Source: Escherichia coli (GTDB lineage Bacteria > Pseudomonadota > Gammaproteobacteria > Enterobacterales > Enterobacteriaceae). From it: DNA of 64,000 bases. Of this stretch, positions 11,510-17,500 are shown piece by piece. Numbering within the stretch: the first letter of the stretch is position 1; each line of letters opens with the position of its first letter. The position numbers are program-made. Location of the stretch: assembly GCF_016026235.1 (NCBI RefSeq), contig NZ_CP065613.1; one strand, given 5' to 3'.

Positions 11510-14500
11510 CAAGTCGGCACTGGACCGCCACCGGGGACTCGAACCTCGCACACTCAACTTAAAGGGTTGACGCTCTTTCCTGATGAGCTAGTGGCGGTTG
11601 GTGGCCCTTGCTGGATTTGAACCAGCGACCTGGCGATTATGAGTCGCTCGCTCTCACCACTGAGCTAAAGGGCCGGGCGCAGGATAATAACGTTACGAAA
11701 TCAATGTTGCAAGCATTCAAAAATCCCCCTTATCTCCTCCACCAGCGCATTCACCATGTCTATCCGAGATAAGTGGCACAAAAAACCCGCTTGTGGGCGG
11801 GTTTTGTTTGCTTTTGCCATCACGTACAAAATCGGCAAAATATCAGATTTGCATGAATATATGCCTTTCAATCTACTTTTGCAACACTTTGCTTTGAAAA
11901 TGCCGTCTTTTTTTTGAACGTGTTCTCATTACAAACAATAAAGCCTCACTATCCAGTCGGTGAAAAATGTGTTTCATTGCAACCCAGTGACGAGTAAATG
12001 TTTTGGACCAGTTTTTAGTTGTCACTCCCGCCAGTAATGCCAGCTCCTGGTATTCATAACCTTCCCCACCAAAAAGTTCTGCTTTTACTGCCTGCGCCGC
12101 CAGCCAGATTAATTTTTTCAGGCGTTCCTGCGTTTTCCCTGCAATTTTTCTGGTACCGGATTGAGCATTAAATTCATTCCACGCCCACTGTGTTATCGCG
12201 ATCTGATATTCCCAACAAATACTCCCGCTGTAACACCACAACAACCAGGCTTTATGATGTTCTTCAAGAGACAGAACAGCCCGCCGCCACGATGATGTCG
12301 AAAACTCAACCGGACTGACCAGAGGAATTGACGTCCCCTTCGCCAGCGATTGCTTTCCCGGGATTGGTGGATTATCCCGCGTTATCATTTTTCCAGTCAC
12401 TTCATCGCGGTACCGGATTTTTTTACGCCTGTAACGCCCTGTATCGAACATGGCATTCTCTTGCCAGGCTTCAAGCTGACCTTTTGTTGCCCCACTCAAA
12501 TCAGCGGTGGCGATAATGAGCTGCTCACGCACAAACTGTAAATACTGGTTATTCATGCGCACCCCAGTTCTGTGATTTTTATCCCCAGCCGCCCACCAGG
12601 AACGAGCTGACCGCGCACAATATTGATTTCATCAAACTGCTCGTCGTCTATAAGTAGTCCAGCATGCGTCAGCGCATCCAGCGGTGCCTTCAGGATATTG
12701 TCCAGGTCACGACGGCGCTTATCCGGTGGCTCTGCAATAATCTTTATCGCCAGCCTTCCGGACAGGTTTAATTTCAGTCGCTGCTGGCGAACAATTAGCG
12801 CCACATCACGGCGATAACGCTCACCGGCTTTTGATACAAAATATGTGCTGCCACGACGTCGCCAGTAGGTGTTCACCGTTGGCGGGTAAGGCAAAACAAA
12901 TTCTATGCGTTCGGTCATTTATGCTTTCCACTTCAGAACACCCGAATTTCTCGCGTGCATTAAAAAACGAATCAGCAACAACAACTGACTACCGTGTTTT
13001 TCTTCAAAATCTTTTACCCCGGCGTGTAGTTCGTTATGGCATTTACGACACAGCGGAATAACAAACAAATCGTCAGCCTTTGTTCCCATCCCTCCCAGTC
13101 CATGACCAATGATGTGGTGCGGATCATCTGCCTGATTGCCACACGTCATGCATTTCTGCGTTTTTACCCAGCGCGTGTATACAGGCATCTCTTCCCGTTG
13201 TGGTTTCTGGCGCTGGAGATACTGAGCCGGAGATTCCGGATCAACGGCAATGCTGACCACCGTCTCTTCCTGTGGTGGATTCTGTTGCTGGTGGGCGTGA
13301 GGCAGCGGCGCAAGATTTTTTGTGCGCTGCTTCAGTATGCTGGTGGCGGTCTGCTCTCCCGGCACGATGTCGCTTTCACGGTACATTGAGCGGATTTTTT
13401 CCGCACGCAACCCCAGCGAACGACGTAATACCGCTTCCGGTAGCGCGTCCGCCACCTGATTGCGGACCGCCCACCAGGATAATTCAGCCAGAGATAATTC
13501 ACGCTCCTGCGTACCGCTTATTGCGTGACCGATGACGTCAATCATCCATGCTGACAGGTTTTGATGAGCAAGTTGCTCGAGTGATTCGGATGTCTGGTCA
13601 CGCAACTGGTTGTCGCAGTGCCAGCACAACACCATTGCGCCGGTACCATAACGGTGAATGACGGTTTCGCTGTGATGATAATCGCCGTGTGGCCACTGGC
13701 AGGATTTAATATGACGCAACAGCCAGTCAGACAATGCACCAGCACCACCAGCAGCACGAATCACCCGTGCGTTACTGAAAAACGGCAGCAATGTTTTGTC
13801 TTCCACTAGCGGCTGGCGAACGGCAGGAACGACCCCGGACGGCAGATTACGCATGCTTTTCGGTTCCGGCTCCACCAGTACCCGGGTATTGTGGAATACC
13901 GGCATGGATTCACGGCCTGGCTTAAGGACCACCAGCCCGAGTTCCGGAACCAGAACAGGTCGAAGTAATACCCGCACATTACCTCCAGATCCGTTGCTGG
14001 AATGTGCAGGACGGACGCGGTGGCCGTTCGGAATAAGGGAGCCTGACGAAGATTATCCAGTGACGATAATCGAGACTGAGGGCTTTCTTAATCTCGTATC
14101 CGTGTCTGCGGTAGCGCTGAATCAGCCATTCAGCCTGTTCTTCGGTGCAGGGGTCGTGCTGATACCAGTCAGATTTGAATGCATGAGAACGCCGCCCGTG
14201 CCTGCTGGCAGGGGCGGCAGAGTTATCCGAATTGTAAAATTTGGTATCGTGCGCCATCTGTTTTCTCTGCTGGCGCAGCAGGTGCCAGTTGTTCAGGCTG
14301 ACGGATGGATTGTAAACCAGAACGACCAGAAAAAACAAAACCCGCCGAAGCGGGTTAAGTGCGGGTGCGTTGAGGATGCCTGACACATCAGCGGTGGCGA
14401 GGGATTTCTCCCCCGCCGGGTCTCTTACTCCTCAGGTTCGTAAGCTGTGAAGACAGCGACCTCCGTCTGGCCGGTTCGGATTCGTACCTCGCAGAGGTCT

Positions 14501-17500
14501 TTCCTCGTTACCAGTGCCGTCACTATGACGGTTAAACAGATGACGATAAGGGCGATTAACATCGCCTTTTGCTGCTTCATAGCCTGCTTCTCCTTGCCTT
14601 TCGGCACGTAAGAGGCTAACCTACATGTGTTCAGCATGGATTGAGCCTCAGATTAATGTTAAGCGTCTTGCAGGACGCGTAATGTTAACTGGGGCTTTTC
14701 TCTATCTGCCTTTTGGTGTTCATGCCTGAGACAGATAGCCTCAAGCACCCGCAGTCATTCTACTTAACTAAGATTTCCCTGCAAACCGTTTTTGTCCGGC
14801 ACAGTAAATATCCAACTAAACCAATAGCGTTCGCTGTATTTACCGCCAGTATTCAATGCACATGACCGCCATGAACACCCCTAAAAAAAGGGCATTTATA
14901 TGTCCAAACATTAATATCAAAACATCAATTTTTTCCATATACCTTGCTGTGAAGATGATGGGCATACATGATGCGAACAACCAGAACGCAACAAACAAAA
15001 ACTGCAATGCGTTTTTCATTATTCCCCCTACAATCAATGTGCAATAACATTTAAACACACCTCAATTTGGCCGGACATATAAATATCTAAACCAGAAAAA
15101 ATCACTTACATAGCGTTACAAACTCTTTAGTCTAAATACTCATCGTAAAACATTCCCCATACTTATCAGTCCGTTCCGCGCCAGGTAGCTTATTGCCTTA
15201 TCTGGCAACCTATAATCAGGTTTCCGCTTTTTCAGTTGGCTGGTCGTTTAACCGACATAGTTAACCCATTAATCTGGTTGCCGGATGCTGGTGGATTTTC
15301 GCGTTTTAGTTGTTCATAAAAGTGCACAGCTTTAACCAGTTCTTCTGATGTAACCGGGACTGGTGGGGCAGTGAATAAGGCCTGAATTTCATAGTTCGGC
15401 CTGTCGTTACAATCCTCTTTTTTCGGTACATATTTCCAGTCACCAACCCACAACTCCCCCTGAGAGTCCATAACACCTTTTTTCACGTAGCGATATCGCC
15501 ACGCTATCGGCTCTGCTTCCAGCGATGCCCGTGCAATTTTGAATAACTCGCCCTCTACTCGCGCCATCCCTGAATTGGGGTGGCATTTCGTAATCGCTAT
15601 TTTTAATTTGGCTTCTTCGATTAATTGTTCTTTTGTTAATTCAGTCATTTTCATTACCGCCCTTTCAGGCGGCCTCCTGATGTTCTGAGGGTGCAGAAAT
15701 CCCTCCGGTTAAGGATTAAATTTTATTTGCTGTGCTAAATTTAATTATTCAGTTTTTATTCCTGCTCTCAAAACAGCCTCTGCCATTCTGATATCCGGAT
15801 TTTCTGAAATCATCTTTTCCGGCGAGTCGCAATCACCACCACATTCAGTTATGCGTTCATGACCAAAACGAATTGTGGTTTTGTGCGCATTAATCATTTG
15901 TGTAAGCGCATCTGTCAATTCTGCAATGCGTTTGTCTTTAACTTCCAGCTCTTTCAGTAAAGCCAGTACGTCAGGATCGCTAACATCAACGACGGTTACG
16001 CGCGATTTCAGGTAATGCTCATCCGCAAAAGTTCGACCAGTTTTAAAATATCCATCATCCCCCTCACCTGTGCAGGCATACACAATATGCGTTCTGGAAA
16101 ATATGCGCTGTATCGACATTTCATCGCCACAAACAGGACATTCCGGCACCTGAATTGGTGAATAACGTTCACGTAATGCCTGGTAATTAGTCTTGCACAC
16201 TGGCTGTCTCCTGAAAAATCACCGCATGCCCCAGTTTCTCCGCCAGCGCCAGTTCTGCCTTAGCGCCTGCTGACCGCTGCCAGCCTTTCAGCATGTAAAT
16301 CGCATCCACACAACGAATCATCGCCATGCAGATATCCATGTACTGCGGCTGTGTCAGCCCGTCCGGAAGTACTGCCGGGTTTAAGACGGTATGCCCTTCC
16401 CGTTTCAGTTCCTCTTCCGCATTGTGAAACGCCTCACGGTTGAAATTTTTATACCCGGTCATTGGACCGGCGATATAGACTCTCACCCTCACGCCATCAC
16501 CTCCTGAAAATTACCCTGATAAAACGACAATATGCGCTGCATAACTTCGCTCTTCCGGCACTCGCGACAGATTATGTTTAGGCGACTGTCGTAGCGACGT
16601 ATTTCTCCGTCAGGTAATGACCAGATAAGGTCCGGATCAACCGCAGATGGTTTCTTCAGCTTTGCCCTTGAGAGCTTTTTACGGGCATTTTGCCAGTCCT
16701 TACGCGCCTGTTCAGACGGGAATAACCCGTAACCAGAGTTGTATACATCGCCACTGGCAACCAGCTCTCTGGCCAGAACGCTCATCAGATATCTTGTTGC
16801 CCCAGTTTTAGCTTCCAGTTGTCGTAACGTCTCGCGCCCACTCTGGCGTACGAGTTCAAGAACCTGCCCTTTAATTTTTTCCCGCTCTTCTTGTGTAAAA
16901 ACTTTTGCCACAAGCCCTCCTGAAAATTACCTCATGACCAGAAATTAACACTTACCCCCTGAAGCCCGGCGGAATTTCGTTATCCGGTTCAGAAATATGA
17001 TTCACACAACGCTGGTTGTTCGTGCCGCTTACCGGGAGCAACCAGGGGTTCTCAAAATTCCGGTCCGGTCCAAAAAACGTCGTCGCTCGCTGAACAAATT
17101 CCGTTCCCGTTTTCCCGGTAGCCGCCAGGTATCTTGCGTAACGCCTCACGCCATCCAGCATGGCCTCTGGTGGCACCCCCTCGCGTAATCTGGCCTTCCA
17201 GGCACTGAAAGCGGATTTCTTCGGGTTTGCCCCGGCACGCAACGGGTACTCCCGCCAGACCTGTTCGAACACATCCGGATAATCCACTCGTCCCACAGAC
17301 TGCCCGGTGTTTTCCGGGACTACCCGATCGGCTTCCCGCTGAATGGCGGAATCGGCTTCAGGCTGCTGCAGTTGGTGTGATTGCTCCGGACTTGCGGTCA
17401 TCACCTGCTGCACAGCGCCCGAATCGGCTTTCAGCGCATACGCTGAATCGGCTTCCGGTGTCGTGCCTGCTGGCTGACCTGGCTCGACGGTCTGAACATC

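What the first reader, a model, noticed from the sequence alone, without database searches (positions are those of the whole stretch)
14425..14800. hok/mok-type type I toxin locus inside the prophage nin region
A 51-aa Hok-family peptide with an overlapping in-frame upstream mok-like extension is present; the about 200 bp upstream leader (14581-14800) has no ORF and is where an antisense Sok-like RNA and fold-back elements would be expected. The regulatory RNA cannot be confirmed by eye.
Basis: partly seen in the sequence, partly recalled or inferred. Interest (0 to 1): 0.45.

Follow-up and report, generated by a model that had tools for sequence, protein, structure and literature searches.

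The report
Complete hok/mok/sok prophage toxin-antitoxin cassette
This is an ordinary, intact copy of the well-known hok/sok RNA-controlled killer-gene cassette carried by lambda-like prophages of E. coli, nearly identical to the experimentally studied hokW-sokW locus, so nothing about it is new.

Summary
A 51-aa Hok toxin (14425-14580, minus strand) is 100% identical to E. coli K-12 HokD/RelF. It has an in-frame 19-codon mok extension (to 14637) and a regulatory leader.

- Rfam's sok model hits the leader at 118.9 bits (threshold 59). The K-12 relBE-hokD region gives no hit.
- The Sok promoter plus RNA (14594-14699, plus strand) is 105/106 identical to the validated sokW of phages 933W and Sp5.
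- The 5' end of the mRNA (tac, 14750-14739) pairs over 12 bp with a fold-back element (fbi, 14375-14363) at predicted probability about 1.

The full cassette spans about 14335-14790.

It sits between the replication genes and DUF968/RusA/Q, which is a nin-equivalent region. Related DNA covering at least 80% of the locus occurs in 3,826 of 5,426 complete E. coli genomes.

Verdict: already known, low interest.

One side observation: a 22-nt patch at the Sok 5' tail and mok start is hypervariable among prophage copies (pi 0.33 against 0.12 or less elsewhere). A small co-residence test gave no support for selection for non-cross-reacting copies.

The parts
14757..14785 (-). hok/mok mRNA promoter: -35 TTTGCA (14785-14780), 17-nt spacer, -10 TAGAAT (14762-14757)
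   Evidence: Consensus scan. It is conserved in 933W and partly in K-12 hokC. It ends 7 nt before the Rfam model start at 14750.
14335..14750 (-). Full-length hok mRNA, about 416 nt. The 5' end is inferred from the Rfam model start and the promoter, the 3' end from the terminator.
   Evidence: Fold -172.7 kcal/mol, z = -7.7 against shuffles. 376/416 identical to 933W and Sp5.
14739..14750 (-). tac (translational activator) element, GGGTGCTTGAGG, at the mRNA 5' end
   Evidence: Pairs with fbi over 12 bp at probability 0.97-1.0. Invariant in 65 loci. Can instead pair with ucb or with 14732-14722.
14702..14738 (-). 5' hairpin next to tac (10 bp, 14738-14729 with 14711-14702)
   Evidence: Folds. 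98% of cells paired across 65 sequences, with one compensatory A-U to G-C pair in 6 sequences.
14691..14697 (-). ucb / anti-SD (AAGCCCC). It pairs with the mok SD in the full-length RNA and with tac in the open form.
   Evidence: Helix 14696-14685 with 14656-14644 in the full-length fold. The tac/ucb helix is 100% paired in 64 sequences.
14646..14649 (-). mok Shine-Dalgarno sequence, GAGG
   Evidence: Lies 8 nt upstream of the mok ATG. GAGGC is invariant in all 65 aligned loci. GAGG is the mok SD in plasmid R1 (PMC9841398).
14612..14649 (-). Sok-target hairpin of the open form: mok SD/dcb stem (GAGGC...GCCTC), mok AUG in the upper stem, loop CUGAACA (14634-14628)
   Evidence: MFE of the 160-nt leader. 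Every natural allele keeps a hairpin of -10 to -15 kcal/mol.
14425..14637 (-). mok reading frame, 70 aa. Here it is in frame with hok, giving a 19-codon N-terminal extension MLNTCRLASYVPKGKEKQA.
   Evidence: ORF list. Same arrangement as the annotated mokW of 933W and mokC of K-12.
14594..14622 (+). Sok promoter: -35 TTGCCT (14594-14599), 17-nt spacer, -10 TAACCT (14617-14622)
   Evidence: 100% identical to 933W and Sp5. In Sp5 the AGGTTA complement of this -10 was replaced by primer YO-421, and antitoxin activity was lost (PMC8621323). It is too weak a consensus match to be picked up by the generic scan.
14629..14699 (+). Sok antisense RNA, 71 nt: a 14-nt single-stranded 5' tail, then a long hairpin and a U-rich 3' end
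   Evidence: 70/71 identical to the annotated sokW of 933W. Fold -30 kcal/mol, z = -5.0.
14590..14594 (-). hok Shine-Dalgarno sequence, AGGAG, 9 nt before the hok ATG
   Evidence: Read from the sequence. The segment AGGAGAAGCAGGCTATG is shared with K-12 hokD and hokC.
14425..14580 (-). hok toxin gene, 51 aa plus stop
   Evidence: Pfam HOK_GEF 81.6 bits. 100% identical protein and 155/156 nt to K-12 hokD; 4 C-terminal differences from HokW.
14440..14457 (-). Downstream box inside the hok coding region that pairs with the hok SD-AUG region (14587-14571)
   Evidence: 15-bp helix in the full-length and truncated folds. 99.7% paired in 65 sequences, almost without variation.
14396..14417 (-). 3'-UTR stem-loop (9 bp), the likely 3' end-protecting hairpin of the processed mRNA
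   Evidence: Folds. 99.7% paired, with G-U, A-U and G-C alternation at one pair. By analogy with the last stem-loop of truncated R1 hok mRNA (PMC9841398).
14363..14375 (-). fbi (fold-back inhibition) element, CCTCAACGCACCC, complementary to tac with one bulged C
   Evidence: Only match to this pattern in the 64-kb window. Pairing probability about 1. 99.7% paired in 65 loci, with the only changes being G-C to G-U. Retained in K-12 hokD.
14330..14356 (-). Intrinsic terminator: 7-bp GC-rich stem (14356-14339) plus a T-run
   Evidence: Terminator scan. Shared with K-12 hokD but not with 933W.

Best explanation
This is a complete hok/mok/sok type I toxin-antitoxin cassette of the lambdoid-prophage lineage. 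Its regulatory half matches hokW-sokW of 933W and Sp5. Its toxin and 3' half match hokD of the K-12 Qin prophage.

Proposed working:
1. A stable mRNA of about 416 nt is made from 14750 to about 14335 on the minus strand.
2. As made, the mRNA is locked shut. Its 5' end (tac) pairs with fbi near the 3' end. The mok ribosome-binding site is held by an upstream anti-SD (ucb), and the hok start region is held by a box inside the coding region. Neither mok nor hok is translated.
3. Slow 3' trimming removes fbi. The 5' end then pairs with ucb, which releases the mok SD into a hairpin carrying the mok AUG.
4. The short-lived 71-nt Sok RNA is made from the opposite strand (14629-14699). Its single-stranded 5' tail binds that hairpin and the mok start. 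This blocks mok translation and, through coupling, hok translation. The duplex is cut by RNase III.
5. When Sok is no longer supplied, the stored mRNA is translated and the 51-aa Hok peptide damages the inner membrane. This would happen on loss of the prophage or, as shown for hokW-sokW, on prophage induction.

Shown here: all the sequence elements, their homology, and the predicted alternative folds.
Shown by others: toxin and antitoxin activity, loss of Sok on induction, and a contribution to lysis and phage release, for the near-identical Sp5 locus. The refolding pathway has been shown only for plasmid R1.
Inferred by me: hok is co-oriented with early rightward phage transcription, so read-through on induction may occlude the convergent Sok promoter.
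For: - Toxin: Pfam HOK_GEF 81.6 bits. It is identical to K-12 HokD.
- Leader: Rfam sok model 118.9 bits against a threshold of 59, full length. That equals the score of the K-12 hokC/sokC locus, where sokC is annotated (118.3), and exceeds 933W and Sp5 (113.5).
- Sok: the promoter plus RNA is 105/106 identical to 933W and Sp5. The RNA folds with z = -5.0.
- tac-fbi: 12 bp at probability about 1. The whole mRNA folds with z = -7.7.
- Open form: in 3'-truncated RNA, the tac/ucb plus SD/dcb form lies within 1.8 kcal/mol of the minimum-free-energy fold. It is the minimum-free-energy fold of the 160-nt leader.
- Conservation: across 65 distinct prophage loci, 96.5% of the cells of the closed structure are paired, against 33-40% when the partners are slid.
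- Experiments on the Sp5 locus: PMC8621323.
- R1 model: PMC9841398.
- Context: the nin-equivalent region, with all genes co-oriented.
Against: - There are no expression data for this particular copy.
- Transcript ends are inferred from homology. The 933W sokW annotation is itself homology-based.
- The Sok -10 (TAACCT) is a poor consensus match and was missed by the generic scan.
- Covariation in the 65-locus set is thin because the sequences are about 95% identical. tac never varies, so tac-fbi has no compensatory changes.
- The plain minimum-free-energy fold of truncated RNA gives the metastable-type 5' hairpin rather than the open form.
- A 2026 preprint reports that three chromosomal hok loci (hokA, hokB, hokC) did not mediate post-segregational killing, so structural completeness does not guarantee activity.
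Confidence: 0.9

Rival explanations
1. relF-type orphan hok: a Hok gene with no leader or Sok of its own, expressed as the tail of another operon, as hokD is behind relBE in K-12 Qin.
For: The toxin protein is 100% identical to K-12 HokD/RelF, and the coding region and 3' UTR are 155/156 and 86/90 identical. RefSeq annotates the same DNA in other strains simply as 'hokD' with no RNA gene.
Against: In K-12, homology to the window stops about 15 nt upstream of the hok ATG, where relE sequence begins, and that region has no Rfam sok hit. The window has the full 170-nt leader with tac, ucb, the mok SD, the mok ATG and the Sok promoter. No relBE lies upstream. Only 4 of 80 prophage loci encoding this exact toxin carry the K-12-type upstream sequence.
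Confidence: 0.02
2. Structurally complete but functionally silent cassette: the elements are present, but the locus neither kills nor is regulated in vivo, like the chromosomal hok loci reported to be inactive in post-segregational killing.
For: [quoted passage not shown] Some relatives are visibly decayed: IS insertions in L012 and L056, a leader deletion in L052, and the relBE replacement.
Against: No disruption is visible here. All elements are intact, and the Sok promoter plus RNA is 105/106 identical to the Sp5 locus, which was shown to act as a toxin-antitoxin pair from its native prophage. HokD itself was toxic in the control set of the 2026 survey. The exact leader allele recurs in 20 of 192 prophage loci.
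Confidence: 0.12
3. Same cassette, different biological role. Instead of helping lysis on induction, it mainly stabilises the prophage (killing of cells that lose it) or aborts infection by other phages, as reported for R1 hok/sok against T4.
For: R1 hok/sok mediates plasmid post-segregational killing and reduces T4 plating (cited in PMC8621323). hok genes are about four-fold enriched in prophages.
Against: The only direct test on a prophage copy found no growth effect in the lysogen. It did find earlier growth arrest and two-fold more released phage on induction. No enrichment of hok next to defence systems was found. Nothing in the sequence discriminates between these roles.
Confidence: 0.3

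Closest known systems
hokW-mokW-sokW of Stx2 phages 933W and Sp5 (VT2-Sakai) (AF125520; PMC8621323)
   Same: The same cassette. The mRNA is 376/416 identical. The Sok promoter plus RNA is 105/106 identical. It carries the same 'MLNTC' mok/Sok-tail allele, the same in-frame 70-aa mok, and the same tac and fbi. It is also carried by a lambdoid prophage.
   Different: The toxin differs at 4 C-terminal residues (TAYEPEE here, VDYESEK in HokW). The sequence after fbi diverges: the window has the K-12-type intrinsic terminator, which 933W lacks at that place. In the 933W record the locus lies near the end of the linear map, next to other genes.
hokD (relF) of the K-12 cryptic prophage Qin
   Same: Identical 51-aa toxin. 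The coding region is 155/156 and the 3' UTR, including fbi and the terminator, is 86/90 identical. The downstream neighbours match: a small gene, then DUF968 (ydfU), then Q (ydfT).
   Different: K-12 has relBE in place of the promoter, tac, ucb, mok start and Sok gene. Homology starts about 15 nt before the hok ATG, and there is no Rfam sok hit. The window carries the intact form of which K-12 hokD is a 5'-truncated remnant.
hokC(gef)-mokC-sokC of E. coli K-12
   Same: The same architecture, with an in-frame mok whose N-terminus is also MLNTC. The Rfam sok score is 118.3, and sokC is annotated as an sRNA antitoxin. The leader is homologous (131/210).
   Different: It is a chromosomal rather than a prophage locus. 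It lacks the roughly 18-nt extension of the Sok hairpin. In K-12 the alignable 3' sequence ends before any fbi, next to IS186.
hok/mok/sok (parB) of plasmid R1, the mechanistic paradigm
   Same: The same set of elements, namely tac/fbi, ucb, mok SD/dcb, cis-antisense Sok acting on mok, and a Hok/Gef-family toxin (model in PMC9841398). The leader fits the family covariance model over its full length.
   Different: HokW and R1 Hok share only 44% protein identity. DNA similarity to plasmid hok loci is confined to about 47 nt around dcb and the hok SD. As I recall (not checked here), R1 mok is out of frame with hok. Here mok is in frame.

Membership tests
[quoted passage not shown] | Small hydrophobic toxin of the Hok/Gef family (about 50 aa) | tested here: met
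   Pfam PF01848 81.6 bits against a cutoff of 22. PHROG 251 E 8e-33. Identical to HokD.
[quoted passage not shown] | hok mRNA leader with the family's conserved sequence and structure (tac, ucb, mok SD, dcb) | tested here: met
   Rfam RF01794 118.9 bits against a gathering score of 59, model positions 1-157 of 157.
[quoted passage not shown] | Overlapping mok reading frame with its own SD, through which hok translation is coupled | tested here: met
   The ORF and the GAGG SD are present. Among 65 relatives the mok start and SD are invariant while the peptide and even the frame vary: 48 in frame, 14 with a 19-codon uORF ending in UGA over the hok AUG, 3 in the +1 frame. Coupling itself was not tested.
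[quoted passage not shown] | Cis-encoded antisense Sok RNA with its own promoter, complementary to the mok translation-initiation region | tested here: met
   By homology only. The promoter plus RNA is 105/106 identical to the functionally tested sokW. The predicted fold has a free 5' tail and a terminator hairpin, z = -5.0. No transcript data exist for this copy.
[quoted passage not shown] | Long-range 5'-3' pairing (tac/fbi) that locks the full-length mRNA | tested here: met
   12 bp at probability 0.97-1.0. Unique match in the window. 99.7% paired in 65 loci, with variation on one side only.
[quoted passage not shown] | Alternative open fold after 3' truncation (tac/ucb stem and mok SD/dcb target hairpin) | tested here: inconclusive
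   The open form is the minimum-free-energy fold of the 160-nt leader. In 355-375-nt RNAs it is 1.8-1.9 kcal/mol above the minimum, where the plain minimum-free-energy fold gives a different 5' hairpin.
[quoted passage not shown] | 3' processing of the mRNA, RNase III cleavage of the duplex, and killing when Sok decays | not testable with these tools
   Shown for R1 and in part for Sp5 hokW-sokW.
relF-type hokD (hok as third gene of relBEF, no own regulation) | relE immediately upstream, with no tac, mok or Sok leader | tested here: not met
   The leader is present. Upstream genes are a small unannotated ORF and Ead/Ea22, with no RelE or RelB. The K-12 region shows no sok hit.
IsrK Hfq-binding sRNA (Rfam RF01394) | Score at or above the family gathering threshold | tested here: not met
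   27.2 bits against a threshold of 50 at 14335-14416 (-). The match covers the hok 3'-UTR hairpin and terminator.

The most novel reading that the evidence does not exclude
The 22-nt patch 14623-14644 covers Sok nucleotides 1-16, the 6 nt before the Sok start, the mok AUG flank and mok codons 2-5. It may be a specificity cassette kept as at least 8 discrete, similarly frequent alleles among lambdoid-prophage hok/sok loci that are otherwise about 95% identical and encode the same toxin. On this reading, balancing or diversifying selection acts on Sok-target recognition so that one prophage's Sok does not silence another's hok. Diversity there is pi 0.33, against 0.018 at hok third-codon positions and 0.12 or less in every other segment. 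Every allele still folds into the target hairpin. However, co-resident copies did not avoid sharing an allele in a small test (7 of 22 pairs identical, against 10.8% between genomes). Relaxed constraint plus recombination among old lineages therefore remains at least as likely.
Probability: 0.15. Interest if true: 0.4.

Novelty: already known. Interest (0 to 1): 0.1.

Why it matters
For annotation, it shows that the gene RefSeq labels simply 'hokD' in thousands of E. coli genomes is, in most prophages, a complete hok/mok/sok cassette whose RNA antitoxin goes unannotated. It also shows that K-12 hokD/relF is a 5'-truncated remnant of this form. For biology it adds nothing new. The cassette type was annotated in phage 933W (GenBank AF125520) and characterised functionally in 2021. 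The only lead worth keeping is the hypervariable Sok-tail and target-loop patch, which could bear on how several copies coexist in one cell.

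Tried and rejected
1. relF-type orphan hok. Rejected by alignment with K-12 and by the Rfam contrast.

2. Generic sigma-70 scan for the Sok promoter. It found nothing on the plus strand. The promoter was placed instead by identity to 933W and Sp5 and by the published promoter mutation.

3. Plain minimum-free-energy folding of 3'-truncated mRNAs. It gave the metastable-type 5' hairpin rather than the open tac/ucb form. Only constrained folding showed the open form to be nearly isoenergetic.

4. Covariation on 65 prophage loci. Structure conservation is strong but true compensatory changes are few (7 pairs, 22 cells) because the set is too similar. tac never varies, so tac-fbi cannot be tested by covariation here. 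Fixed-column counting of the target hairpin was spoiled by indels (84.6% paired), so each allele was folded separately.

5. The idea that two loci (L012, L056) carry a second kind of upstream operon. Rejected: they have an IS element (a 362-aa ORF that I read as a transposase by eye; no domain search was run) inserted in mok.

6. The orthogonality hypothesis for the hypervariable patch. The co-residence test was negative.

7. The isrK hit in the hok 3' UTR. It is sub-threshold and was not pursued.

8. A literature search for cross-talk between hok/sok copies found no treatment of prophage Sok alleles.

Full report
**1. What is in the sequence**

On the minus strand, an ORF of 70 codons runs from 14637 to 14425. 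Its last 51 codons start at the ATG at 14580. They encode MKQQKAMLIALIVICLTVIVTALVTRKDLCEVRIRTGQTEVAVFTAYEPEE.
- Pfam Hok/Gef scores 81.6 bits, E 3e-23.
- PHROGs assigns it to 'MokW-like host killing'.
- The peptide is identical to K-12 HokD/RelF and differs from HokW of phage 933W at four C-terminal residues.

**2. The leader**

Rfam's sok family (RF01794) matches 14575..14750 on the minus strand at 118.9 bits (gathering score 59, E 1.7e-27), over all 157 model positions. The model is 157 nt long and is written in the hok-mRNA sense, so it really describes the hok leader.

The same search run on controls gives 118.3 bits for K-12 hokC/sokC, 113.5 bits for 933W and for Sp5, and nothing for the K-12 relBE-hokD region.

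A four-way alignment shows three things:
- The window's leader is nearly identical to that of 933W.
- It is clearly homologous to that of hokC.
- K-12 hokD becomes alignable only about 15 nt before the hok ATG, where relE sequence takes over.

Downstream of the stop codon, K-12 hokD and the window are almost identical (86/90). K-12 hokD looks like a 5'-truncated remnant of the kind of locus seen here.

**3. Sok**

GenBank record AF125520 (phage 933W) annotates mokW, hokW and a 71-nt 'SokW antisense RNA'.
- That RNA maps to window 14629-14699 on the plus strand with 70/71 identity.
- Together with its promoter (-35 TTGCCT 14594-14599, 17-nt spacer, -10 TAACCT 14617-14622) the match to both 933W and Sp5 is 105/106.
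- The RNA folds into a 14-nt free 5' tail followed by a long hairpin and a U-rich end (-30 kcal/mol, z = -5.0).
- The -10 is a poor consensus match and the generic promoter scan missed it.
- Takada et al. 2021 (PMC8621323) replaced exactly this box in Sp5. Primer YO-421 changes the AGGTTA complement, and antitoxin activity was lost.
- Their sokW probe YO-592 is identical to window 14660-14631.

**4. The mRNA and its folds**

A promoter-like site (TTTGCA, 17 nt, TAGAAT; 14785-14757) ends 7 nt before 14750. An intrinsic terminator lies at 14356-14339. Together these predict an mRNA of about 416 nt.

The full-length RNA folds at -172.7 kcal/mol, z = -7.7. In that fold:
- The first 12 nt (tac, GGGUGCUUGAGG) pair with CCUCAACGCACCC at 14375-14363 (fbi) with probabilities of 0.97-1.0.
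- The mok SD (GAGG, 14649-14646) is paired with AAGCCCC (ucb, 14697-14691).
- The hok SD-AUG region (14587-14571) is paired with 14457-14440 inside the coding region.

The fbi pattern occurs only once in the 64-kb window.

When the 3' end is removed, the 5' end re-pairs locally. The 'open' conformation described for plasmid R1 has a tac/ucb stem plus a mok-SD/dcb hairpin that presents the mok AUG (PMC9841398). Here it is the minimum-free-energy fold of the 160-nt leader. In 355-375-nt RNAs it lies only 1.8-1.9 kcal/mol above the minimum. The Sok 5' tail is complementary to the loop and the 5' flank of that hairpin.

**5. Comparative support**

Eighty IMG/VR prophage loci encode the identical toxin. 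Of these:
- 63 distinct full-length variants carry tac.
- 4 carry the K-12 relBE-type upstream sequence.
- 2 carry an IS element inserted in mok.

On the 65-sequence alignment, 96.5% of the cells of the closed structure form pairs, against 33-40% when the partners are slid. The tac-fbi helix is 99.7% paired, and its only changes are G-C to G-U.

Real compensatory changes are few (7 pairs, 22 cells) because the set is about 95% identical. The covariation evidence here is weak. The argument for structure rests mainly on the family covariance model and on published work for R1.

**6. Context and how common it is**

The window itself carries the following genes, all on the minus strand:
- Q antiterminator: 11873-12562
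- RusA: 12553-12918
- DUF968: 12919-13977
- a small conserved gene: 13979-14257
- the hok cassette
- Ead/Ea22: 15745-16200
- DUF4406: 16187-16492
- DUF977: 16489-16911

A 99.8%-identical locus in E. coli ATCC 43886 shows the same order, with O-like and DnaC-like replication genes further upstream. RefSeq annotates only 'hokD' there. This is a nin-equivalent position, and K-12 Qin has the same downstream neighbours.

Related DNA covering at least 80% of the locus is present in 3,826 of 5,426 complete E. coli genomes, with a median of two places per genome and up to nine. It also occurs in 79 phage records.

**7. Mechanism and function**

The most likely working is the classical hok/sok scheme set out in the best explanation.

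The close relative in Sp5 has been tested:
- HokW is toxic and localises to the inner membrane.
- sokW expressed from its own promoter neutralises it, partly dependent on RNase III and Hfq.
- sokW disappears on mitomycin C induction in a RecA-dependent way.
- HokW appears about an hour before the endolysin.
- Deleting the locus delays growth arrest and halves phage release.

Those authors leave open what removes sokW. My inference from the gene order is that early rightward transcription runs in the hok sense, head-on into the Sok promoter, and could occlude it. This is untested.

Prophage stabilisation and exclusion of other phages remain possible roles. The sequence cannot decide among them.

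**8. Comparison with what is known, and verdict**

The locus meets every sequence-level defining feature of the hok/sok family that could be tested. It fails the test for the relF-type arrangement. It is a mosaic of two described loci: the regulatory half of hokW-sokW, and the toxin and 3' half of hokD.
- The cassette type is annotated in the 933W GenBank record AF125520.
- It was characterised experimentally in 2021.
- Prophage enrichment of hok was surveyed in a 2026 preprint.

It is already known and of low interest.

**9. Side observations on the family**

*Hypervariable patch.* Among the prophage loci, one 22-nt patch (14644-14623) is hypervariable. It covers Sok nucleotides 1-16, the mok AUG flank and mok codons 2-5.
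- Its diversity is pi 0.33. That compares with 0.018 at hok third-codon positions and 0.12 or less in every other segment.
- Twenty alleles occur in 192 loci, eight of them common. The window has the 933W/Sp5 allele, found in 20 of 192.
- Every allele keeps the target hairpin.
- I tested whether co-resident copies avoid sharing an allele. They do not: 7 of 22 within-genome pairs are identical, against 10.8% between genomes. The sample is small and may include duplicated prophages or redundant contigs.
- The 2026 survey states that it did not analyse Mok or Sok. I found no paper treating this variation.

*mok frame.* The frame differs among loci that encode the same toxin. It is in frame in 48, a 19-codon uORF whose UGA overlaps the hok AUG in 14, and in the +1 frame in 3. 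This fits the view that translation through the region matters, rather than the Mok peptide itself.

Noticed in passing
window 14623-14644 (-), and alignment A2 columns 108-131: A 22-nt hypervariable patch (Sok 5' tail, mok start flank, mok codons 2-5) sits in a locus that is otherwise about 95% conserved. Its diversity is pi 0.33, against 0.12 or less elsewhere. There are 20 alleles in 192 prophage loci, 8 of them common, and every allele keeps the target hairpin. Co-resident copies do not avoid identical alleles (7 of 22 pairs the same).
   Followed up: partly
A2 (L019, L017 and others) compared with window 14581-14637: Among loci encoding the identical Hok, mok comes in three forms. It is in frame with hok (70 aa, as here) in 48. 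It is a 19-codon uORF whose UGA overlaps the hok AUG (ATGA) in 14. It is a 68-aa +1-frame overlap in 3.
   Followed up: yes
L012 1841-2929 and L056; K-12 L003 junction: An IS element (362-aa ORF that looks like a transposase by eye; no domain search was run) is inserted in mok. Its junction lies immediately upstream of AGGAGAAGCAGGCT, the same nucleotide at which relBE sequence joins hokD in K-12. This may be a recurrent breakpoint that uncouples hok from its leader.
   Followed up: partly
window 14335-14416 (-): A sub-threshold Rfam match to IsrK, a Salmonella Gifsy-1 prophage sRNA (27.2 bits against a threshold of 50), covers the hok 3'-UTR hairpin, fbi and terminator.
   Followed up: no
window 14840-15058 (-); gap 14800-15230: An AT-rich stretch of about 480 bp between the hok promoter and the next gene is unannotated in the near-identical RefSeq strain. 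It holds a 59-72-aa ORF with two hydrophobic segments (MKNALQFLFVAFWLFASCMPIIF...). There is no Pfam or PHROG hit.
   Followed up: partly
window 14439-14442 (-): Hok Tyr47 is encoded by UAC followed by G. This is the UACG context, which from my own knowledge of TadA substrates is the editing motif. [quoted passage not shown] Whether Tyr47 is the equivalent residue was not checked. If it is, editing would create a second cysteine besides Cys30.
   Followed up: no
window 21759-21810 (+): A DicF sRNA gene (Rfam 76.7 bits) lies on the strand opposite to the early rightward genes, as in the dicBF operon of Qin-like prophages.
   Followed up: no
window 11365-11674 (-); 26223-26312 (-); 27304, 41683, 43507, 45915: A cluster of four tRNA genes (Gly-UCC, Thr-UGU, Lys-UUU, Met-CAU) lies just downstream of Q. 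Further on there is a tRNA-Ser(CGA) and four tRNA-Asn genes, which suggests the prophage lies next to the chromosomal serU/asn tRNA region.
   Followed up: no
L001 about 1940-1990 (933W) compared with window 14330-14362: The 933W/Sp5 locus diverges from the window immediately after fbi and lacks the GC-rich terminator that the window shares with K-12 hokD. The window's cassette is therefore a mosaic: a hokW-type 5' half and a hokD-type 3' half.
   Followed up: partly
L035 (IMGVR_UViG_651053022_000007): Two hok leader copies with different patch alleles lie within one 6.1-kb stretch of a single prophage contig.
   Followed up: no
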